DNA from: an uncultured Chromatiales bacterium
Lineage (GTDB): Bacteria > Bacteroidota > Ignavibacteria > SZUA-365
Direction of reading: 5' to 3'
Assembly (NCBI GenBank): GCA_964448285.1
Contig: CAYUWG010000013.1
Location: 10,970 to 74,969, forward strand
Length of the DNA: 64,000 nt
Shown in pieces: positions 18,909 to 27,251 of this stretch; within the stretch, counting starts at the first letter, position 1, and every line of letters begins with the position of its first letter. A model generated the notes under the pieces. The model saw only the letters and a list, made by a program, of their open reading frames with translations, was not told where the DNA came from and ran no database searches. The position numbers and the translations under genes are program-made.

Positions 18909-19598
18909 TCAGCCTCGTTCAAGTCGCTGAATCTCGCTGTTGATCTGAATGAGCACTTCGGGATTGCCGATCTCCCCGTCTAGACTGAAAACAATGAAAA
19001 CCTTTCCGCCATACGTTTGAGTAAATTCTTCAAAGCTGGCTTTCATGCGCTCGGAGAGCGAATACCCACCGAAATTTGCTTTTGCGGTAACAGGTTTGAT
19101 TTGAATCCCGAAAGCCTTGTCTCCTACCCATCCTAAGTAGTCTATGTCCCCCGCATGATCCAGTTGAGGCGATGACTCTTCAAACGTGATGGATGGAAAC
19201 TTCTTGCTCAGACCATCAGTGACGACGGACTTCTCAGTGACATAACCGTCGTAGGTACGGTTAATTGTGAGATTGTAAATGAAATCGATGCAGTCGTCGA
19301 GAGTTAGTGTTCGGAATGCCTCTTGCCATTCCGGAATAAGGAACTCGGTAATCTTGGTATACAGCCGTTCACCAAGCTCTTGCAAACTTTCCTTTGTAAC
19401 CTTGTGCGGAACCTTCGTTTTTGTATGAGCGTGCTCAAAGTACCACTGTTCCCATTCCTTGAATGTCTTGGGTTGACACTCCCTAATGAGAGCCATTACC
19501 TCGCCGACCTTGTGTGTCTTTGTAAGACCCCATTTCCCATTCGCATAGTTCAAGACCATTTCTTTGGTCCCAAAATCCTTGGAGTATTTTTTAGGCAT
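18909..19598 (-). CDS. putative type II restriction endonuclease (PD-(D/E)xK-like), partner of adjacent methyltransferase
   Basis: 229-aa ORF starting at ATG 19598 (track start 19673). ATG overlaps the MTase stop by 8 nt (ctgcATGCCTAA), i.e. translational coupling. Candidate D...(Q/E)xK element GDIDYLGWVGDKAFGIQIKP. Confidence 0.45.
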   Translation of the reverse strand: MPKKYSKDFGTKEMVLNYANGKWGLTKTHKVGEVMALIRECQPKTFKEWEQWYFEHAHTKTKVPHKVTKESLQELGERLYTKITEFLIPEWQEAFRTLTLDDCIDFIYNLTINRTYDGYVTEKSVVTDGLSKKFPSITFEESSPQLDHAGDIDYLGWVGDKAFGIQIKPVTAKANFGGYSLSERMKASFEEFTQTYGGKVFIVFSLDGEIGNPEVLIQINSEIQRLERG

Positions 19599-20904
19599 GC
19601 AGTCCTGATGTTGGCTGAATAATAGTGAAGGCGAGAAACTTGTCCTTGTATTTGTAAGTGCGAACAACGTCAACGTTAACGAAGCCTGACTTGATCAAGT
19701 GTGCGTTCAGGAATGTCTTATTCTTGAGGTAAACGTAGGACAACAGAATCCCGTTCTCGTCATGTTTGTCCTTGTCGAATCTCAGGAAGACCCTCTGACC
19801 CTTCATCTTGGAATTCAGGAACTCCATAGCCTCTTCTCGACGTCTTGGCTCTTCGGCTACTCCAATAAGCCTGATCGTAAGCCCGTTGTTGAGTTTGAGA
19901 AGTTCAGGGCTGAGGATCTCCGTTACGTTATACAACTCGGCTCTTTCTCCATTATCGCCGTTCTCGATCTTCGAGCCGAACTTCAGCTTTCGAGGATCAA
20001 CCTTCTTGTCCAACTCGTGCGGGTCAGTAAACCTGTATGGAAGGGATTCAATGTCCTTGTCTAAGTTCTCGTGTGCCTGTTGTTGAGTAACGAAATCACA
20101 GGAGGCATCACCGAATATATCATGCTGGGAAATCTTCAATTTATTCTTGATAATTGGAGCGAATGAAGGGTTTATTTCATAGCCGATGGAATTCCTGCCG
20201 AGGTTCTTTGCGGCAAGCGATGTCGTTCCGCTTCCAAGAAAAGGATCAAGGACGGTATCGCCGACGAATGAAAACATTCGAATCAATCGCCGGGGAAGTT
20301 CTTCGGGAAACATTGCTAAGTGCTTGTCTTGGCGTTCGCCAGCAAAGTTCCAGTGCCCGGCAAAATAGGTATTCCATTCGTCTGTTGTGAGTTTGGAAAG
20401 TTCCTTCATCTCTTTGCTGACTTTTGGCGGGTCACCTAACTTCTTGAATATGAGAATGAACTCGTAATCAATCTTCAGGATGCCATTTCTTGGGTAAGGA
20501 AATGAACCCATTATTGAGGCACCACCGGTCGTGTTGGTTGTCGTTACCTTTTGCCAAATAATGGCGCCCATGTAGTCCATTCCGATGGTCTCACAGAACT
20601 TAGTAATCTCCGTCCTAATCGGGATAACCTTGTAACGCCCGTAATAAACGGAGCGGGCGAACTGGTCGCCGATATTGATGCAAAGCCGGCACCCTTTATG
20701 GAGAACCCGAGAGGACTCCTTCCACACAAGATTCAGATTGTTGATATAGCTTTCGTACGTATCGTGAAAGCCTATCTGTTTCTCGTCCCCATAGTCTTTG
20801 AGTTGCCAGTACGGCGGCGAAGTGATAACAAGGTGAACGGATTCTGCTGCGATTTCTGTCATTCGCCTTGCATCGCCGATTACTATTTTGTGATGGGTGG
20901 CCAT
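19591..20904 (-). CDS. beta-class N4-cytosine/N6-adenine DNA methyltransferase fused to a C-terminal SNase-like (thermonuclease-fold) domain
   Basis: Motif IV VITSPPYWQLKDYG precedes motif I VLDPFLGSGTTSLAAKNLGRNSIGYEI (beta-class order). C-terminal ~140 aa (LTIRLIGVAEEPRRREEAMEFL...YVYLKNKTFLNAHLIKSGFV) aligns with the staphylococcal-nuclease fold. Start moved to ATG 20904 (MATHHKIVIGDARRM). Confidence 0.85.
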   Translation of the reverse strand: MATHHKIVIGDARRMTEIAAESVHLVITSPPYWQLKDYGDEKQIGFHDTYESYINNLNLVWKESSRVLHKGCRLCINIGDQFARSVYYGRYKVIPIRTEITKFCETIGMDYMGAIIWQKVTTTNTTGGASIMGSFPYPRNGILKIDYEFILIFKKLGDPPKVSKEMKELSKLTTDEWNTYFAGHWNFAGERQDKHLAMFPEELPRRLIRMFSFVGDTVLDPFLGSGTTSLAAKNLGRNSIGYEINPSFAPIIKNKLKISQHDIFGDASCDFVTQQQAHENLDKDIESLPYRFTDPHELDKKVDPRKLKFGSKIENGDNGERAELYNVTEILSPELLKLNNGLTIRLIGVAEEPRRREEAMEFLNSKMKGQRVFLRFDKDKHDENGILLSYVYLKNKTFLNAHLIKSGFVNVDVVRTYKYKDKFLAFTIIQPTSGLHA

Positions 20905-20976
20905 ACTTCCTGAACCAATGTACTGAATCTCAATCACATTTGCTGGTTCTTTGCGCAAGAGAAACGCCACCAGTTC

Positions 20977-21266
20977 ACCTAATGCTCAGCGCAAGTACGC
21001 CGCTGTTATTGCCGTTCAGGAACGATACGTCGGAAGCCGCTTCGACGCATTTCTTCGCTGTTGGAACCACAAACCAATCCGTGAGCAAATCCGTTGAGTA
21101 GCCACAACTATCCTTCCTAAGCTTCAACCAAGCCATATCAACAAGTGAGCGCCGTTGTATTCGCTGCTTTGTGCCTTGTGCCTTCTACCACAACTTTACA
21201 TTTAGCCAAACCTTCATTCAACATCGCCAATAAAACGTGCGAGCGCCGTGTTGCCGTTTGCTATGC
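20977..21266 (-). repeat. attC-like inter-cassette element A (contains an internal tandem duplication of the stop-proximal arm)
   Basis: Left end ACCTAAT is a degenerate complement of the GTTAGGT core. The body has two tandem copies of ..accacaact..catatcaacaagtgagcgccgttg... Right end GCTATGC lies 28 nt before the rsgA stop. Similar to elements B, C and D. Confidence 0.5.
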
Positions 21267-21294
21267 GCTCGTGAGCGGCGGCCGCTTAGGTCTA

Positions 21295-22371
21295 TCAAGA
21301 CGAAGGTTTTCGCTTCTTAAGCTGTTCCACTGCAGTCTTTATCATTCGCCCAAATTGCTTGTCCTTCTTGCGTCTTTCGACGTAGGTCATCTCGTGGAAT
21401 TGGGATTCCCTGATCAATTTCATGTAACTCCGATACTTAGCTTCGCTTAGAGAGCCACTCTGAACCGCCACTAAGATCGCACAACCGACTTCGACAGAGT
21501 GCGTGCAATCATTGAACCGGCAGCGGTTCGAAAGTTCGTGGATATCAGAGAAACTGTCGTCAATACCGACGCTAACGCCCATCAATCCCAGTTCCCTCAT
21601 GCCTGGAGTGTCAACCAAAAGTGCTCCGCTGTTTAGGACTGTCATCTGTCGGCGCGCCGTCGTATGTCTTCCTCTGCTATCCTTTTCACGAACGGGATTC
21701 GTTTCGAATGCCTCGCAACCGAGAAGATGATTGAGAAGTGTGGTTTTGCCCACGCCAGAGGACCCAAGCAAGCAATATGTTTTGCCATGTTGCAGAGCCT
21801 GCCTGACTCTGTCGAGGCCCGTTTCAGTTTTGCTGCTGAATGCGATGATCCTTGTATTGATTTGTGCGTCTCGGATATCTGATATCCGTTTCTCCAATTC
21901 CTCGGCGCTGATGAGATCGCTTTTGCTAAGCAAAATGACAGGCTCGACATGGCCTTCATTGACCATTACGAGATATCGCTCCAACCGGCGGAGGTTGAAA
22001 TTGAGATCGCACGATTGCATGATGAAGGCGACATCGATATTCGAAGCGATCATCTGGTATTCAACTTTGTCACCGGCGGACTTGCGACGCAAGAAGGTTC
22101 TTCTTGGGAACATGTCATGAATGATTGCGAGTGTGCCGTCATTGTGGTACTGAACGAATACCCAGTCCCCGACGCATGGGAGCTCCTGGGTTGAGTCGGC
22201 AGAATAGAGGAGCTTGCCCGTTGGCTCCGCTTGAACTTCATTGTGCTCGTCGCGAACGAGGTATCGGTCTCTATCGACTCTTGTGACGCGCGCGATAGTG
22301 CAGTCTTGTAACGCAAGCCCCGCACGTTTCTCTTCAAACCAATTATCAAATCCGAGATCTTCTAGCTGCAT
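21295..22371 (-). CDS. rsgA: ribosome small-subunit-dependent GTPase A (RsgA/YjeQ family), cassette-borne copy
   Basis: N-terminal OB fold, circularly permuted GTPase with G1 LLGSSGVGKTTLLNHLLG and VDTPG, and a C-terminal zinc finger CRFNDCTHSVEVGC. Confidence 0.85.
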   Translation of the reverse strand: MQLEDLGFDNWFEEKRAGLALQDCTIARVTRVDRDRYLVRDEHNEVQAEPTGKLLYSADSTQELPCVGDWVFVQYHNDGTLAIIHDMFPRRTFLRRKSAGDKVEYQMIASNIDVAFIMQSCDLNFNLRRLERYLVMVNEGHVEPVILLSKSDLISAEELEKRISDIRDAQINTRIIAFSSKTETGLDRVRQALQHGKTYCLLGSSGVGKTTLLNHLLGCEAFETNPVREKDSRGRHTTARRQMTVLNSGALLVDTPGMRELGLMGVSVGIDDSFSDIHELSNRCRFNDCTHSVEVGCAILVAVQSGSLSEAKYRSYMKLIRESQFHEMTYVERRKKDKQFGRMIKTAVEQLKKRKPSS

Positions 22372-22416
22372 TTGGTGTCCTAAGTATAGTCAGTAAACAA
22401 GGCCGCTGCCCATGGC

Positions 22417-22619
22417 GCCTAACATTTAGCGCAAGGACGCCACTGTTTTTGCCTTTCAGAAATGCCGCGCACGGAGCCGCTATCAATAGACTAATTTCTT
22501 GCGGCGAAGTGCGCATACCAACTTGCGGCAAAAACCGTTGAGCGACCACAACTATTTTTCCCCACAGCTTTAACTGAGCCATATAAACAAATGGGGCGGC
22601 GTGGTTACGCCTGTTATAC
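22417..22619 (-). repeat. attC-like inter-cassette element B
   Basis: Plus strand begins GCCTAAC (complement of the canonical core GTTAGGC) 45 nt upstream of the rsgA ATG and ends GTTATAC 28 nt before the peptidase stop. The arms are mutually complementary (gcgcaaggacgcc / ggcgtggttacgc). Confidence 0.55.
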
Positions 22620-22646
22620 GAAAAATGCCACAAAGCCTTTCTCATT

Positions 22647-24065
22647 CTAATAGCGTTTCACGATGTCATCAATGGAGACTCCTTCAATCAGGAGTTGAGA
22701 AGATTCTATTCCATAGATCCACTCTTGGAAGAAATCACGAAGATCCCGGCTCGAGACGCGCTCGCAAAGTTTATAAAACTCTTGAAAGTTGATGACGCGA
22801 CCTTTGAACTCCAGAAGCATGGTTCGAATGATCGTCCTAAAGGTGCTTTCTCCAACGAGGCGATACAAAACATACAGGGACCAGGCGCCCTTCGTGTACG
22901 AATGCCTGCCGAGTTCTTTCGCCCCGTAGCCGGCAATCGGCGTTTCAAAAACTTGTCGGTCATACTCCGCCCATCGCACAAAGAGATCTCGACTCTTTTC
23001 CATGTCTTCCTCAAAAGCTGCCTCACCGCGAAATGCCCGGATTGCCAGAGCCTCAAAAAACGTCGCAAACGCCTCGTCGAAGTACCGACACCGCTGCACA
23101 TCTGCCGACGGTGTCGCATTCCATGAGTGTCCGATCTCGTGATAGGCTTCGGAAATTCTCGTACTGTCTTTGAATGCGGCCGCCGTTTGCAGGAAGTAGT
23201 AGTCGCTGGCTTGCGAACCCCATCCATCCGGAATTTCTATAATGGAATATCCCTTGAAGCTTTCGGGTAAGCCGAACATTTCGCTATAGAGCTTGATGAC
23301 GTCTTTCGAGGCGTTCATGACTAACCTCGCTCCGATGCTGTCCTCAGGCAGGTGATACACAACGAGTTGATCGGTCGGATTACTCAGAACTGTGAACTTT
23401 GCCACGGCAACGTCGATGCGCCACGTTGGTATCTTGCTTCGGAATACGAACGTTGCATTCTCTGAGTCGATCTGTGAATCGACCAACTCTCCCCCGCAGG
23501 CCGCACGGTAATCCGCCGGAACGGTTGCGGTTACTTCGTATGTGAATTTCGTGTCATTGGACGCTAAGGTACTGGCGAATGTCGGCTTGGCAAGGATCGG
23601 ATAGGCAAACGCGTCGGGACGTAGTAGAGAGTAGTTCTCATCTATCCGGTCCCTAACGTATGCCATCACTTCCGGATATCCGAAGATGAATCCATCGTAT
23701 TCCAAGACAACGGTCGTCGTGTCGTTAGGTCGAAGCGGAGTACGAAGGTTGACGATAACTTCTCTGGCCTGAAGAGAAGGTTCATCACGAAGTTGACCGA
23801 TATCCTGTTTGAAGTGGAGCGGTGTGCCGGTGCGATCGCTTACCTGTTTAACTTCAAGCAATCGGTACAGCAGAAAGGGGAGTTGCGCGTGTGGCTGATC
23901 GGTGATATTGCGTATTGAAAGCGTTGCCAAAATGGAGACGCGCTGCTCTCTGAGGTGAAATTGCACATTGAGTTTGTAGTGCACAACGGCAGGAAGGTCT
24001 GAAGCAGTCGCCGAAGTCATTTCGCAAAGAGAAACAAGTACAGTGATAAGGAATAGCCTTCTCAT
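22647..24065 (-). CDS. secreted M1-family-like gluzincin metallopeptidase
   Basis: Signal peptide MRRLFLITVLVSLCEMTSATA. HEIGHSWN...(18 aa)...E zinc-binding HExxH-x18-E motif. Start taken at ATG 24065 with an aaaggag RBS; the track start 24095 is TTG. Confidence 0.7.
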   Translation of the reverse strand: MRRLFLITVLVSLCEMTSATASDLPAVVHYKLNVQFHLREQRVSILATLSIRNITDQPHAQLPFLLYRLLEVKQVSDRTGTPLHFKQDIGQLRDEPSLQAREVIVNLRTPLRPNDTTTVVLEYDGFIFGYPEVMAYVRDRIDENYSLLRPDAFAYPILAKPTFASTLASNDTKFTYEVTATVPADYRAACGGELVDSQIDSENATFVFRSKIPTWRIDVAVAKFTVLSNPTDQLVVYHLPEDSIGARLVMNASKDVIKLYSEMFGLPESFKGYSIIEIPDGWGSQASDYYFLQTAAAFKDSTRISEAYHEIGHSWNATPSADVQRCRYFDEAFATFFEALAIRAFRGEAAFEEDMEKSRDLFVRWAEYDRQVFETPIAGYGAKELGRHSYTKGAWSLYVLYRLVGESTFRTIIRTMLLEFKGRVINFQEFYKLCERVSSRDLRDFFQEWIYGIESSQLLIEGVSIDDIVKRY

Positions 24066-24099
24066 GTGTCGGGCTCCTTTCGTGTCAATTTTCAAATGA

Positions 24100-24295
24100 C
24101 GTTTGCAGCAACAACGTAGCGGTTTATGCCGCTCAAAGATGAGCGCCGAAGGGAGCTATCAAAGGACCAATTCTCGGCGCGCGTAGGCGCAAGACCAACA
24201 CGCGGCAATAACAATGGATAGACCACAACGACCTTTTCCATAGCCTTAACTGCGCCCTATCAACAAAGGGAGCGCCGGTGTTACTGCTGTTATGC
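24100..24295 (-). repeat. attC-like inter-cassette element C (core-proximal 7-mer apparently deleted)
   Basis: Right end GTTATGC (24289-24295) contains the TAA stop of the HNH gene on the opposite strand. The body is similar to element B. At the left end, the cataacgt found at the same position in element D is missing (aatgacg---tttgcagc). Confidence 0.5.
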
Positions 24296-25189
24296 GTTCG
24301 TTGGTTTGCCGCGCTTCTTCCATTGTTCCTTCTTGAGCCTCTTCTCGAGTCTCTTGTGGCATCTGTCGTGTAAAAGGATAGCATGTGTAAGATCGTCAGT
24401 CTTACCACCTTTGGCGTGCGGAATGATGTGATGTGATGACGAATCACCAAATCGCATCTGTTTGCCGCATTCGCCACACAGTCCATTTTGGCGAAAAAAA
24501 AGAAGTCGTTTTTGCTCAGCATCATGCAGTCGGTCGGGGTCCCTGACAATAATGGGGTGAAGCCTTTTGAATTCTTCTATCATGATCCCAAGGCGATTTG
24601 TCAATGACTCAGAAGTTGTCAAGATTTTCGACTCTTGCTTGAACTGCTTATATCGTGAGAACAATTTTTTGGTCATGCCAGGTGGTGGGTCAACCTCGTA
24701 GAGCGAGAAGCTATTAAGGTTTCTTAGAAATTCCTTGCCAAATTCGAACAACTCATTTAACAACTGTGAATTGTCAGCACGCTGCTTTCTGAGCCATGAT
24801 ACAAGCAGATAGAAAGCAATCGATTCCCTGGGTGAGAAGGCCGTAAGCATCAGGTTGAGAGATGAATGAAGAACATCTAGATTGCCGATGAAGGCTTTGA
24901 CCTTCTTTGCAGGAATCTTCTTTTGGTATGACTTGACCCCCTTGACAAGCGTGTGGAGTTCTAGGTCAGGGAAGACTCTTCTTTGAAAATCACCTTCAAG
25001 TTCGATTAGCAGCATCTCGGCGGCAAGTTGTCTCCACCTGAATCGTTTGTCTTTTCCAAGAAGTGTAAAGAACTTATGTGTCTCACGGGTGTTCTTAAAG
25101 GTATCTTTGAATAGACCGCGATGAGCGCTGATCTTTTCTGCCTTGTTAAGTGGTGTGCCTTCCCTGTAAGCGTAGAAAGGTTTGAACAA
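24290..25189 (-). CDS. HNH endonuclease domain protein (DUF1524-like), C-terminal half of a GmrSD-like type IV restriction module
   Basis: GLCGECGKQMRFGDSSSHHIIPHAKGGKTDDLTHAILLHDRCHKRLEKR is an HNH motif. Overlaps the upstream DUF262 ORF by 44 nt in another frame. Confidence 0.7.
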   Translation of the reverse strand: MFKPFYAYREGTPLNKAEKISAHRGLFKDTFKNTRETHKFFTLLGKDKRFRWRQLAAEMLLIELEGDFQRRVFPDLELHTLVKGVKSYQKKIPAKKVKAFIGNLDVLHSSLNLMLTAFSPRESIAFYLLVSWLRKQRADNSQLLNELFEFGKEFLRNLNSFSLYEVDPPPGMTKKLFSRYKQFKQESKILTTSESLTNRLGIMIEEFKRLHPIIVRDPDRLHDAEQKRLLFFRQNGLCGECGKQMRFGDSSSHHIIPHAKGGKTDDLTHAILLHDRCHKRLEKRLKKEQWKKRGKPTNA

Positions 25190-25589
25190 TGTCTTCTTCC
25201 TTGCTCTCTGGATCGTGACTTTTCAGCTTCAAGTAGAATACGCAGTATGCGTCAAGTAGAGTCTTGTCTGGAAAGTCTAGATGAGAGTACTTGGTAATGT
25301 CCGTATCATCAAGGTCGAGTTTATCCAATAGGTAGTTATGGATAGCGAGTAGTCTCTGTTGACCGTCCAAAACCTCATACTGGCCGTGTTCGTTCACAAA
25401 AAGGACAAGGACACCTATGGAATAACGATTAATGATGGACCTGATAAGCTCGATTTTCTGGGAGTGTTTCCAAATATCCCCCCGCTGGTACTCCTGGTTG
25501 ATGAAAATCTTTCCGGCGTCGAACAACTTTGGGATTTGGGCAAGGACGAACTTGTCAAAGTGTATGTCAGGAACAGTTTGTTTAGGCAT
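25146..25589 (-). CDS. DUF262 (ParB-like nuclease fold) protein, N-terminal half of a GmrSD-like module
   Basis: Conserved VLDGQQRLLAIHNYL (the DGQQR motif of DUF262). 147 aa, shorter than a complete DUF262 domain. Confidence 0.7.
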   Translation of the reverse strand: MPKQTVPDIHFDKFVLAQIPKLFDAGKIFINQEYQRGDIWKHSQKIELIRSIINRYSIGVLVLFVNEHGQYEVLDGQQRLLAIHNYLLDKLDLDDTDITKYSHLDFPDKTLLDAYCVFYLKLKSHDPESKEEDIVQTFLRLQGRHTT

Positions 25590-25628
25590 AGTTCCTCAGT
25601 AGTCTAAGTCAAGCGGCAAACCAATGAC

Positions 25629-25755
25629 GCATAACGTTTTGCAGCTACCCGAAGGTTTTAGAAGCACTAAACTGTCAATCTGCACTAAAGCTGAATAGAA
25701 GCACGAACCTTCAATTAACCACGTCACCGCCACTTTTGGGTAGGTGCTGTTATGT
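25629..25755 (-). repeat. attC-like inter-cassette element D (127 bp, best-preserved palindrome)
   Basis: Plus strand GCATAACgttttgcagCTACCCgaagg ... GGGTAGgtgctGTTATGT. The arms are reverse-complementary (L'/L'' gcagctaccc / gggtaggtgctg). It ends 12 nt before the stop of the 153-aa gene and 39 nt before the DUF262 ATG. Confidence 0.55.
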
Positions 25756-25768
25756 GTAGTTTTTCTTG

Positions 25769-26185
25769 TCATTCGTCAATCTGAATTTCATAGGTCTTAC
25801 CATCTTCTCCATATACTGTTGCAGTACCATCTTCATCAATATCAGCATATGAAATATGGTCTTCGTTTAAGTAGCCGTCATTTGGGAAGTTAATTTGAAC
25901 GACTTGACAGTCTTGAACATCAACGTCAAGCGTGTATGTTGCAGAGTATCCTGTTTCAGGATTATTGTAGTCGACAGTTGCTGAATAAGTTCCATCTTCA
26001 AATTTACAGTCTGATTTATACTCACTTGTTCCATCGCTCTCATCATTATTTTCATCTTCATAATCAGACGAATTTGAATATGAACTTGAATTATCGCTTC
26101 TTTTTTTGTTCTCCGATTTCGAGGAGCAAGAAGACATTTGACTAATTAAAGTCAGAAAGCAAATAAAAATTATTGTCTGTTTCAT
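25769..26185 (-). CDS. small acidic lipoprotein (hypothetical)
   Basis: Signal peptide MKQTIIFICFLTLISQMSSCSS (lipobox). D/E/S-rich mature region. Gene is AT-rich. Start chosen at the internal ATG that begins the signal peptide. Confidence 0.5.
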   Translation of the reverse strand: MKQTIIFICFLTLISQMSSCSSKSENKKRSDNSSSYSNSSDYEDENNDESDGTSEYKSDCKFEDGTYSATVDYNNPETGYSATYTLDVDVQDCQVVQINFPNDGYLNEDHISYADIDEDGTATVYGEDGKTYEIQIDE

Positions 26186-26192
26186 AAATATA

Positions 26193-26615
26193 TTATTCAA
26201 ATATTTTGTCATACCATTTGGATACGTCATCCCTTATTAAATCGTAATACTTGTAAATTATTAATGCTAAGTCGAAGTCAGCACGTTTGGCTTTATACTC
26301 GTTTACTGTAAAGTATCCATAAAAATTACCTTCTTTGTCAACAACAACAGGCGGATTAGTCCCATAAGCATTCCAAGGCGAATTTGAATTATATTCATTG
26401 CCATATGTTCCGTATTCATTCCAAATGGATTTTGAATTATAGCTATTTCCATAGGTTCCATATTCGTTCCATATAGAATTATTATCATAGCTATTGCAAT
26501 TTAAGCAACCAAGATATTCATCGTGATTCTGTCCGCCATATAAGTGCAAAGTTTGAGCATACGTTGTTGTCTCAAAAGCAACAATTAGAAAAAGAAAAAA
26601 AAGTGTTTTGTTCAT
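26193..26615 (-). CDS. small secreted protein with SIWNEYGTYGN tandem peptide repeats (hypothetical)
   Basis: Signal peptide MNKTLFFLFLIVAFETTTYAQ. Three tandem repeats SIWNEYGTYGN(S/E)YNS. AT-rich. Start at the internal ATG. Confidence 0.5.
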   Translation of the reverse strand: MNKTLFFLFLIVAFETTTYAQTLHLYGGQNHDEYLGCLNCNSYDNNSIWNEYGTYGNSYNSKSIWNEYGTYGNEYNSNSPWNAYGTNPPVVVDKEGNFYGYFTVNEYKAKRADFDLALIIYKYYDLIRDDVSKWYDKIFE

Positions 26616-26700
26616 ATTCTTTCGTTTTACTGGTTCGTTAAAATTACACATAACTACCGTAAGTACGAACACCTTCGCATATACTGCCAATATAGGCGGA

Positions 26701-26720
26701 TAAACGAACATGTTCGTTTA
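26701..26720. repeat. perfect 20-bp palindrome TAAACGAACATGTTCGTTTA overlapping the intI-fragment stop codon
   Basis: Read directly from sequence: 9-bp arms and a 2-nt centre. Located between the recombinase fragment and the first cassette. Candidate recombinase-binding/attI-like site or terminator hairpin. Confidence 0.5.
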
Positions 26721-27251
26721 TTTCGATCCTGTAAGAACAGCCGTGTCTAATGGACTGACGATCTTGCCAAGCGACTTCTTGCTTACGTGCGTATAATTCT
26801 CCGTCGTCTTCGAGCTGGCGTGACCGAAGAGTTCCTCTATGTACCGGAGGCCAGTCCCGGCTTCCAGAAGGTGTGTCGCAAAAGCATAACGCCGGCTGTG
26901 AACTATGACTTTCTTGCGAATCCCCGCAGCAGCGACAGCCCGCTCGAAGACGTACTGGACACTCCGTTCCGACAAGTGCTTCCTGCCGTCCGCGCCTTCG
27001 AACAAGTACTCCATCGGCTGGCAGGTACAGAAAGACTCGCGCAACGGCTCCGAGGCAACGTAGGAGAGAAGGGAGTACATGTCCTTTATTCCTTTCGAGC
27101 CATGCAGGTGCAGGAGCATTCGTTTGCTGTGGCTGTGTTTCCTCAACCTCATCTCTCTCTCCACTGTCTCGAAAAACTTGTCGGCCATGTGTGGCCCCTG
27201 TGCAGGTTCAACAATCAGTTGTTGCAACGTTACGGAAAGAGTCACTTTCAA
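26718..27251 (-). pseudogene. 5'-truncated tyrosine recombinase with integron-integrase-like C-terminus (intI remnant)
   Basis: Catalytic C-terminal region HSRRYAFATHLLEAGTGLRYIEELFGHASSKTTENYTHV (HxxR...Y), followed by VSPLDTAV as in IntI1 (VRSPLDAL). GSKGIKDMYSLLSYVASEPLRESF is comparable to IntI1 [23 protein letters not shown]. Only about 177 aa are present, with no N-terminal domain and no upstream ORF. Confidence 0.65.

What the first reader, a model, noticed from the sequence alone, without database searches (positions are those of the whole stretch)
24290..25589. GmrSD-like type IV restriction module split into DUF262 and HNH/DUF1524 ORFs in different frames
ORF 25146-25589 carries the DGQQR motif of DUF262 but is only 147 aa. 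ORF 24290-25189 carries the HNH motif (CGECG...HHIIPHAKGG...H) typical of DUF1524. The two overlap by 44 nt in different frames.

GmrSD-family enzymes are normally single polypeptides of DUF262 followed by DUF1524. This could be a frameshifted, inactivated gene, a sequencing error, or a genuinely split two-subunit variant.
Basis: partly seen in the sequence, partly recalled or inferred. Interest (0 to 1): 0.5.

Follow-up and report, generated by a model that had tools for sequence, protein, structure and literature searches.

The report
Frameshifted DUF262-HNH nuclease gene cassette
One extra G has cut a normally one-piece, GmrSD-like ParB/HNH nuclease gene (a probable anti-phage restriction enzyme carried on an integron-type cassette) into two overlapping reading frames, so it is most likely a recently inactivated gene, not a new two-subunit system.

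Summary
The two minus-strand ORFs exist exactly as described: 25146-25589 (147 aa, DUF262/GmrSD_N with DGQQR) and 24290-25189 (299 aa), overlapping by 44 nt. The C-terminal nuclease is a classical zinc-finger HNH (PF01844), not DUF1524.

Removing one G from the GGG run at 25162-25164 gives a 432-aa protein. It is colinear, at 60-79% identity, with more than 119 single-ORF homologues of 420-440 aa. The frame switch falls inside the family-invariant motif FLRLQ|EGTPLNKAEK. Twenty-eight homologue DNAs read CAR-GAR there; the window reads CAG-G-GAA.

The same allele occurs in independent assemblies of four sequencing runs, so it is a real mutation and not an assembly error. No diverged homologue shares this split. 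Other family members are broken at many different positions, including the closest relative.

Apart from the frameshift the gene is undamaged: 0 of 125 conserved columns are changed. The lesion is therefore recent.

The gene appears to sit on an integron-type cassette, flanked by attC-like elements next to a truncated integrase, in an uncultured Ignavibacteriales genome.

Verdict: an ordinary, recent frameshift pseudogene of an uncharacterised GmrSD-like family. Interest is low, with some added value from the context.

The parts
24290..25589 (-). Whole disrupted gene. It is a DUF262(ParB-like)-helical-HNH nuclease, 432 aa once one G is removed.
   Evidence: The conceptual fusion matches more than 119 single-ORF homologues of 420-440 aa at 60-79% identity over 97-100% of its length. 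None of 125 columns that are >=95% conserved is changed.
25146..25589 (-). ORF1, 147 aa. It holds residues 1-142 of the family protein, with DUF262 motifs I (YQRGDIW), II (DGQQR) and III (FLRLQ), followed by a 5-residue out-of-frame tail (GRHTT) and a TAA stop.
   Evidence: Pfam PF03235, E 6e-16. The motif definitions come from PMC12065111.
25162..25164 (-). Frameshift site: a GGG run holding one extra G between codon Q142 (CAG) and codon E143 (GAA).
   Evidence: Twenty-eight distinct homologue DNAs read CAR-GAR here, while the window reads CAG-G-GAA. The motif LRLQEGTPLNKAE is invariant in the family.
24290..25189 (-). ORF2, 299 aa as listed mechanically from a TTG start. The homologous part begins at E143 (GAA, 25160-25162). 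It encodes the rest of the ParB-like domain, the helical middle domain and the HNH nuclease (C371/C374, H386/H387, H407, C410/H411).
   Evidence: Pfam PF01844, E 2e-7. The AF2 model shows a beta-beta-alpha element at residues 383-426.
25624..25756 (-). Upstream attC-like element: R'' ACATAAC, A, L'' GCACCTACCC ... L' GGGTAGCTGC, AAAAC, R' GTTATGC. The cassette carrying the nuclease gene starts at TTATGC (25634-25629).
   Evidence: nhmmer E 1e-18. L''/L' complementarity is 9 of 10. Nucleotide homology with the L072 and L062 cassettes begins exactly here.
24089..24296 (-). Downstream attC-like element of about 200 nt. Its R'' GCATAAC contains the gene's TAA stop. L'' is GCAGTAACACC and L' is GTTGTTGCTGC. 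The R' is degenerate (GTCATTT).
   Evidence: nhmmer E 1e-36. The first 51 nt are 88% identical to an attC-like element that lies upstream of the homologous gene in L072.
25635..26654 (-). Neighbouring AT-rich cassette (30-36% GC) encoding two small signal-peptide proteins. It starts at G|TTATGT, which is the perfect complement of its own R'' ACATAAC.
26718..27251 (-). Truncated tyrosine recombinase. Only the C-terminal catalytic part remains. It lies in the same orientation as the cassettes and is followed by a 22-nt perfect palindrome at 26700-26721.
   Evidence: Pfam PF00589, E 2e-17, model positions 52-170. The best NCBIfam hit is integron integrase TIGR02249, but at only 82 bits against a 265-bit cut-off and over the C-terminal 80 residues. 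It lacks the IntI-specific insertion seen in L059.

Best explanation
This is a recent loss-of-function allele of a single-chain nuclease gene.

The intact family protein is about 428 aa and has three parts:
- An N-terminal ParB/Srx-like DUF262 NTP-binding domain, with motifs QRxxxW, DGQQR and FxxxQ.
- A helical middle domain.
- A C-terminal zinc-finger HNH nuclease.

By analogy with GmrSD, BrxU and SspE, it is inferred to be a nucleotide-regulated restriction endonuclease. It may be modification-dependent (type IV-like), and it travels on integron-type gene cassettes.

In this Ignavibacteriales lineage one G was inserted into a GG dinucleotide between codons Q142 and E143. Translation then ends five codons later. 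The product is a 147-aa fragment without the DNA-binding and nuclease parts, and the remaining 290 codons are stranded in the +1 frame.

What is shown: the insertion, its position, its reality in several read sets, and the single-chain norm of the family. What is inferred: loss of function, and the anti-phage role of the intact enzyme.
For: (1) Deleting one G restores a 432-aa protein that is colinear with more than 119 single-ORF homologues at 60-79% identity.

(2) The switch lies inside the invariant motif LRLQ|EGTPLNKAE. Twenty-eight homologue DNAs read CAR-GAR, while the window reads CAG-G-GAA.

(3) The break is inside the Pfam DUF262 match, not between domains.

(4) A profile search of 1.84 billion representatives found 7851 hits, 112 of them at E<=1e-30. 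Most of the 150 listed are about 400-440 aa and span the whole profile.

(5) The short representatives that were inspected are broken at many different places: seven of eight show a frameshift or internal deletion, at about residues 75, 87, 118, 148, 153 and 190 and a 60-to-358 deletion, and the eighth is a contig-edge partial. One locus has an IS256 insertion near residue 155, and some loci carry several frameshifts. Decay is therefore common and has no preferred junction.

(6) The closest relative, P0002 (L072), carries a different frameshift inside its HNH domain.

(7) The identical allele is present in Logan assemblies of SRR5011273 (100% identical over 3.6 kb) and SRR23136762/3/4.

(8) The only SNP in the gene among these populations is S326F. 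It is non-conservative, at a column where 120 homologues have P, S, G or A.

(9) ORF2 has no ATG until codon 59. Its listed TTG start is simply the first start codon after a stop.

(10) The surroundings are a decaying mobile region: a truncated integrase and degenerate attC-like sites.

(11) Precedent: Machnicka et al. 2015 note that adjacent 'separate' GmrS/GmrD genes may be errors, and that this turned out to be so for the founding E. coli CT596 member (PMC4619093).
Against: Apart from the frameshift nothing is damaged: 0 of 125 conserved columns are changed and every catalytic residue is present. That outcome is equally expected if both pieces were still under selection.

The allele is the only one seen in four read sets from accession series SRR5011273 and SRR23136762-4, and no intact near-identical allele exists among 5.8 billion proteins.

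ORF1 retains all three DUF262 nucleotide-binding motifs. The break falls in a low-confidence loop (pLDDT <50 at residues 143-145) between helices 130-143 and 149-154 of the model.

A purine-rich AAGGAAG lies about 7 nt upstream of the TTG of ORF2. It encodes the invariant KEED, however, and the host shows SD-like motifs upstream of only 9 of 31 long ORFs.
Confidence: 0.8

Rival explanations
1. Functional two-piece enzyme. The 147-aa ParB-like fragment and a separately initiated C-terminal protein (helical domain plus HNH, from the TTG at 25189 or a downstream start) associate non-covalently and still work as a GmrSD-like nuclease.
For: Both pieces are undamaged. The break is in a predicted flexible loop just after DUF262 motif III. 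An SD-like AAGGAAG precedes the TTG. The allele is fixed in all four read sets. Two-protein GmrSD-like systems do exist, namely TgvAB and GrwAB (PMC12409362).
Against: No diverged homologue shares this junction. TgvAB and GrwAB consist of two proteins that each have a complete DUF262 domain, not one domain cut in two. The cut lies inside the Pfam domain and inside an invariant motif. The start would be a TTG 44 nt upstream of ORF1's stop, in a host with weak SD usage. The only population SNP is a non-conservative change in ORF2. The nearest relative is broken elsewhere.
Confidence: 0.08
2. Sequencing or assembly artefact. The real genome has GG and an intact 432-aa gene.
For: The lesion is a single-base length change in a short G run, the classic form of an indel error. 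Nothing else in the gene is damaged.
Against: The same CAGGGAAGG is present in contigs assembled independently (Logan) from four runs. These contigs are 99.7-100% identical to the window over 1.5-8.3 kb, and they differ from it only by SNPs, never by indels. A 3-base run is not error-prone on accurate-read platforms. Read pile-ups could not be inspected.
Confidence: 0.04
3. Programmed +1 ribosomal frameshift. The ribosome slips at GGA-AGG-C (P-site Gly codon, A-site AGG, the rarest Arg codon here) and makes a full-length protein at low level as a form of regulation.
For: AGG is the rarest Arg codon in the window, at 5.2 per 1000. The A-site context AGG-C resembles the yeast Ty1 +1 site; this comparison comes from my own knowledge and was not tested.
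Against: The site is not conserved. All 28 homologue DNAs are in frame there. The slip would replace the invariant E143 with G. tRNA-Gly would re-pair poorly on GAA. No stimulatory element was sought or seen.
Confidence: 0.02

Closest known systems
GmrSD family type IV restriction enzymes (Eco94GmrSD, BrxU) and SspE
   Same: All share an N-terminal ParB/Srx-like DUF262 domain with DGQQR, a helical middle region and a C-terminal His-Me-finger nuclease, normally in one polypeptide. The best solved-structure matches of the model are BrxU 7p9k (E 2e-4, probability 0.99), then SspE 6jiv and DndI 9jfl. The inferred mechanism, an NTP-regulated nuclease, is the same.
   Different: The nuclease here is a zinc-finger HNH (PF01844), not DUF1524 (PF07510). 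The protein is shorter, about 428 aa against about 560-590 aa. Whole-chain TM-scores are low, about 0.2. The substrate is unknown. The window copy is frameshifted.
Two-protein GmrSD-like systems TgvAB and GrwAB of Vibrio cholerae
   Same: They have two adjacent genes, DUF262-containing proteins, and a requirement for both partners (PMC12409362).
   Different: In those systems each partner has its own complete DUF262 domain. Here a single DUF262 domain is cut after motif III by a 1-nt insertion, and homologues are single genes.
Menshen NsnA (best PADLOC hit)
   Same: The ParB-DUF262 domain plus the following helical 'ParBDB'-like region match the NsnA model at E 6e-18 over residues 9-193. The motifs are as described in PMC12065111.
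   Different: There is no NsnB ABC-ATPase or NsnC effector gene next to it. The protein carries its own HNH effector instead.
Integron gene cassettes and attC sites
   Same: A family member (P0041) is the third cassette of a canonical integron, with IntI, attI and GCCTAAC...GTTAGGC attC sites.

In the window, L072 and L062 the gene is bounded by elements with R''-L''...L'-R' architecture. The stop codon lies inside R'', the L''/L' boxes covary, and the cassette ends are identical while the neighbours differ.
   Different: The elements here are long (130-210 nt). Their folding energy is not better than that of shuffled sequences. The adjacent recombinase is truncated, lies in the same orientation as the cassettes, and lacks the IntI-specific insertion. 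No attC covariance model was available to score the elements.

Membership tests
GmrSD family (DUF262 + DUF1524; Machnicka et al. 2015) | N-terminal DUF262/GmrS domain with a conserved DGQQR motif | tested here: met
   PF03235, E 6e-16. DGQQR is at residues 75-79.
GmrSD family (DUF262 + DUF1524; Machnicka et al. 2015) | C-terminal DUF1524/GmrD domain (PF07510) with (E/D)H...N...N motifs | tested here: not met
   There was no PF07510 hit at E<=0.1. The C-terminus is PF01844 HNH with CxxC...HH...H..CH.
GmrSD family (DUF262 + DUF1524; Machnicka et al. 2015) | Overall fold similar to solved members (BrxU, SspE) | tested here: inconclusive
   In Foldseek the best PDB hits are BrxU (E 2e-4, probability 0.99) and SspE, but the whole-chain TM-score is only about 0.2.
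GmrSD family (DUF262 + DUF1524; Machnicka et al. 2015) | NTP-dependent cleavage of modified (hmC/glc-hmC) DNA | not testable with these tools
   This needs biochemistry or a phage challenge.
DUF262-HNH ~428-aa family (uncharacterised; annotated 'DUF262 domain-containing protein' or 'HNH endonuclease family protein') | Colinear full-length similarity with all conserved motifs | tested here: met
   The fusion is 60-79% identical over 97-100% of its length to more than 119 proteins. None of 125 conserved columns is changed.
DUF262-HNH ~428-aa family (uncharacterised; annotated 'DUF262 domain-containing protein' or 'HNH endonuclease family protein') | A single uninterrupted ORF | tested here: not met
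   A 1-nt insertion at 25162-25164 interrupts the ORF. All 28 homologue DNAs are in frame at this site.
Two-protein GmrSD-like systems (TgvAB/GrwAB) | Two partner proteins, each with its own complete DUF262 domain | tested here: not met
   There is only one DUF262 domain, and it is divided between the two ORFs. The system description is from PMC12409362.
Menshen (NsnABC) | An NsnA-like gene followed by an NsnB ABC-ATPase gene and an NsnC effector gene | tested here: not met
   The neighbours are small secreted proteins, an M1 peptidase and an integrase remnant. The same holds around intact homologues.
Integron gene cassette | A 3' attC site with paired R''/R' and L''/L' boxes around a variable centre | tested here: inconclusive
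   The architecture and L''/L' covariation are present: own pairs match at 8-10 of 10 positions, against 4.6 for cross pairs. The repeat family is found by nhmmer. However, folding z-scores are not significant, the downstream R' is degenerate, and no curated attC model was available.
Integron gene cassette | The same cassette found in different arrays with conserved boundaries | tested here: met
   The window, L072 and L062-64 share the 5' end TTATGCGTCATTGG(T/C)TTGCC and a stop codon inside R'', while the flanking genes differ. P0041 is a cassette in a canonical integron.
Integron gene cassette | An adjacent integron integrase carrying the IntI-specific additional domain | tested here: not met
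   The window recombinase is truncated and lacks the insertion. Its TIGR02249 match is 82 bits against a 265-bit cut-off, over the C-terminal 80 residues only.

The most novel reading that the evidence does not exclude
The split allele is functional. A 147-aa ParB-like NTP-binding fragment (motifs I-III) and a separately translated helical-HNH protein reassemble into a two-subunit GmrSD-like nuclease. That would make it a natural 'split after motif III' variant, captured on an integron-type cassette in Ignavibacteriales.
Probability: 0.07. Interest if true: 0.5.

Novelty: new member of a known kind. Interest (0 to 1): 0.22.

Why it matters
For the question asked, the value is mainly in annotation. 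An apparent two-gene 'GmrS/GmrD-like' pair is a one-base frameshift of a single-chain gene. This repeats the history of the founding GmrSD example (PMC4619093).

Two side results have modest wider interest.

First, an uncharacterised DUF262-HNH nuclease family is very strongly conserved, at 54-68% identity across many bacterial phyla and in MAGs labelled as archaeal. It travels at least partly as integron cassettes, which makes it a reasonable candidate for experimental testing as a defence enzyme.

Second, it decays often. The two closest relatives carry independent frameshifts. This fits rapid turnover, or a cost, of defence cassettes that sit in chromosomal arrays.

Tried and rejected
- NCBIfam gave no hit for the fusion protein.
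- PADLOC hits covered only the N-terminal DUF262 part (NsnA, PD-T4-2_A, HEC-06), so the protein was assigned to no defence system.
- Folding energies of the attC-like elements were not better than those of shuffled sequences. The same was true of a genuine attC from L059, so energy is not a useful test here.
- A crude TAAC...GTTA plus energy scan of the window did not single out the sites. The same scan downstream of the homologues' stop codons found clear attC-like sites only in L059 and L009.
- A MAFFT alignment of six L059 attC sites was too poor to build a covariance model from, so none was built.
- I looked for an 'empty site' in related Ignavibacteriales genomes through RsgA. There was no synteny in L070 or L071, so the island boundaries could not be confirmed that way.
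- No full-length family member was found in the phage or plasmid collections.
- The sigma-70 promoter and terminator scan gave nothing above the shuffle level.
- The apparent frameshift in L032 was dismissed because it is caused by a masked run of N.
- Frameshifts in MFD MAGs (L033-L035) may be long-read assembly errors and were given little weight.

Full report
**Observation.** On the minus strand, ORF1 (25146-25589, 147 aa) and ORF2 (24290-25189, 299 aa) are present and overlap by 44 nt, with ORF2 in the +1 frame. ORF1 matches Pfam GmrSD_N/DUF262 (PF03235, E 6e-16) and carries DGQQR. ORF2 matches Pfam HNH (PF01844, E 2e-7) through CGEC...HHIIPH...H..CH. By sequence, the nuclease is closest to the En domain of a group II intron maturase (6me0, 2e-9) and to McrA (6ghc).

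**Where the frame switches.** ORF1 reads ...IVQTFLRLQ-GRHTT*. ORF2 reads MFKPFYAYR-EGTPLNKAEK.... Joining Q142 to E143 gives a 432-aa protein that matched 287 database proteins. Of the best 120, 118 are 415-443 aa, and they are 58-79% identical to the fusion over 93-100% of it. The two short ones are the same split ORF (P0014) and a 399-aa protein. LRLQEGTPLNKAE is invariant across 48 aligned members. In 28 distinct homologue DNAs the Q-E codons are CAR-GAR. The window reads CAG-G-GAA, so there is one extra G in the run at 25162-25164. The fusion's Pfam DUF262 match runs through the junction (residues 21-155, model positions 3-123 of 199). The cut is therefore inside that domain, immediately after DUF262 motif III (FxxxN, here F138LRLQ142; motif definitions from PMC12065111). 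It is not at a DUF262/nuclease boundary. In an AlphaFold2 model (mean pLDDT 82.7) the junction lies in a low-confidence loop (residues 143-145) between helices 130-143 and 149-154.

**Real mutation or error?** Contigs assembled independently (Logan) from SRR23136762, SRR23136763, SRR23136764 and SRR5011273 carry the same two ORFs and the identical CAGGGAAGG. They are 99.74-100% identical to the window over 1.5-8.3 kb, with SNPs but no indels. An assembly artefact is therefore unlikely. Read pile-ups could not be inspected. No intact allele closer than 79% identity exists in the 5.8-billion-protein collection.

**Is a split the norm anywhere?** No.
- A profile search of 1.84 billion cluster representatives found 7851 relatives, 112 of them at E<=1e-30. 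Most of the 150 listed are 400-440 aa and span the whole profile.
- Eight short representatives were inspected. Seven are broken at unrelated places: frameshifts after about residues 75, 87, 118, 148, 153 and 190, and a 60-to-358 deletion. The eighth is a contig-edge partial.
- Among 54 genome loci, one copy is interrupted by an IS256-family transposase near residue 155, one is a deletion remnant, one is a short fragment, and three have frameshifts. Those three are in MFD MAGs and may be assembly errors.
- The closest relative of the window gene (P0002, L072, 71% nucleotide identity) has its own, different frameshift inside the HNH domain.

Decay of this family is thus frequent and has no preferred junction.

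**How old is the lesion?** The fusion deviates at 0 of 125 columns that are >=95% conserved among 119 homologues. The median homologue deviates at 1. The frameshift is therefore recent, or both pieces are still constrained. The only SNP inside the gene among the sampled populations is S326F, at a column where homologues have only P, S, G or A with two exceptions, and never F. This is one data point, weakly in favour of relaxed constraint.

**What the intact protein is likely to do (inferred).** The architecture is a ParB/Srx-like DUF262 NTP-binding domain, then a helical domain, then a His-Me-finger nuclease. The best solved-structure matches are BrxU (7p9k, E 2e-4), SspE (6jiv) and DndI (9jfl). 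These point to a GmrSD-like, nucleotide-regulated restriction nuclease. It fails one defining feature of the GmrSD family, because the nuclease is HNH PF01844 rather than DUF1524. 'Works like GmrSD' is a fair statement, but 'is a GmrSD' is not. PADLOC's best hit, NsnA of Menshen (6e-18), covers only the N-terminal part, and there are no NsnB or NsnC neighbours. The genuinely two-protein relatives TgvAB and GrwAB have two complete DUF262 proteins and do not resemble this split (PMC12409362). Machnicka et al. 2015 state that fused forms predominate and that the 'separate' GmrS/GmrD of the founding E. coli CT596 example turned out not to be separate (PMC4619093).

**Context.**
- The host is an uncultured Ignavibacteriales bacterium: its RsgA is 87% identical to those of named MAGs.
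- The gene lies in a lower-GC stretch (0.30-0.44, against 0.50-0.58 in the flanks). Next to it is a truncated tyrosine recombinase in the same orientation (26718-27251).
- It is bracketed by members of a 130-210-nt repeat family found by nhmmer at 25756-25624, 24296-24089, 22620-22411 and 21171-20976. The family also occurs three times in L072 and just upstream of the intact homologue P0001 in L062-64.
- These elements have attC-like architecture: R'' (G/A)CATAAC, A, L'' of 10-11 nt ... L' of 10-11 nt, NNAC, R' GTTATGC. The L''/L' boxes differ between copies but stay complementary: 8-10 of 10 positions for own pairs, against a mean of 4.6 for cross pairs.
- The gene's stop codon lies inside R''.
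- Each cassette's first six bases (TTATGT, TTATGC) complete a perfect complement of its own R'' (ACATAAC, GCATAAC).
- Five of the eleven GTTATGY heptamers in the 64-kb window fall within 24289-26890.
- Nucleotide homology between the window and L072 starts exactly at R' (25635) and ends at R''. The cassette 5' end TTATGCGTCATTGG(T/C)TTGCC is shared by the window, L072 and L062, although the neighbouring genes differ.
- Another member, P0041, is the third cassette of a canonical integron with IntI, attI and textbook attC sites.

I therefore regard the gene as an integron-type cassette, with probability of about 0.7. There are caveats:
- The folding energies are unremarkable.
- The downstream R' is degenerate.
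- The local recombinase lacks the IntI-specific insertion.
- No curated attC model was available.

**Verdict.** The most likely explanation is a recent one-base insertion that inactivated a single-chain DUF262-HNH nuclease gene (confidence about 0.8). The rivals are less likely: a functional two-piece enzyme (about 0.08), an artefact (about 0.04) and programmed +1 frameshifting (about 0.02). The programmed-frameshift reading is weakened because the site is not conserved and the slip would replace the invariant E143. The finding itself is ordinary. The family and its cassette context are mildly interesting.

Noticed in passing
window 20976-26654 (minus strand): 25756-25624, 24296-24089, 22620-22411, 21171-20976: A family of 130-210-nt attC-like elements follows successive genes in the same orientation: the small secreted proteins, the DUF262-HNH gene, an M1 peptidase and even RsgA. 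This suggests a partly fossilised integron-like cassette array in an Ignavibacteriales chromosome. The attC-like sites would be unusually long.
   Followed up: partly
window 26718-27251 (-) and 26700-26721: A truncated tyrosine recombinase, of which only the C-terminal catalytic part remains, lies in the same orientation as the cassettes. Its best NCBIfam hit is integron integrase, but far below the cut-off. Its stop codon sits inside a 22-nt perfect palindrome, ATAAACGAACATGTTCGTTTAT.
   Followed up: partly
window 25769-26711 (-): A very AT-rich (30-36% GC) two-gene unit encodes small signal-peptide or lipoprotein-like proteins with no clear family. One contains tandem WNEYGTYGN-like repeats. 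The other has a weak YxzE-like bacteriocin hit (E 5e-4, below the cut-off).
   Followed up: no
window 18909-20970 (-): A type II restriction-modification pair lies about 3 kb from the finding. It comprises an MjaI-family endonuclease (PF09568, 3e-29) and an N6/N4 DNA methylase fused to a staphylococcal-nuclease-like domain. It is followed by a degenerate GCATAGC... element.
   Followed up: no
L072:1252-2580 (SRR21101785): The closest relative of the window gene (P0002, 79% aa identity) has an independent frameshift inside its HNH domain. The frame changes between ...DDLSNA and LLHEKCH.... It is flanked by the same attC-like family.
   Followed up: yes
L029:6231-8786; L038:8001-8359; L041: Other family copies are disrupted in other ways: by an IS256-family transposase near residue 155, by a 60-to-358 internal deletion, or reduced to a 65-residue fragment.
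   Followed up: partly
L003-L036: The about-428-aa DUF262-HNH protein is 54-68% identical across MAGs labelled as Bacteroidota, Chloroflexota, Deltaproteobacteria, Planctomycetota, Calditrichota, Kaiserbacteria (CPR), Elusimicrobia, Chlamydiae, Bathyarchaeia, Nitrosopumilaceae and Nanoarchaeota. This is unusually strong conservation for a putative defence gene and implies wide horizontal transfer. The binning of the short archaeal contigs was not checked.
   Followed up: partly
L059:1-8500: This is a canonical integron with a clear IntI and two inverted copies of the attI region. Cassette arrays run in both directions. Besides the DUF262-HNH gene, the cassettes include NucS_C-like and SIR2_2-like genes.
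   Followed up: partly
window 25756 / L068: The 46-kb Logan contig from SRR5011273 is 100% identical to the window and ends exactly at 25756, the first base of the upstream attC-like element. This may reflect cassette-content polymorphism, or a drop in coverage in the AT-rich neighbouring cassette.
   Followed up: no
window 24612: This is the only SNP inside the gene between the window and the SRR2313676x populations. It changes S326 to F, at a position where homologues have only P, S, G or A with two exceptions, and never F.
   Followed up: yes
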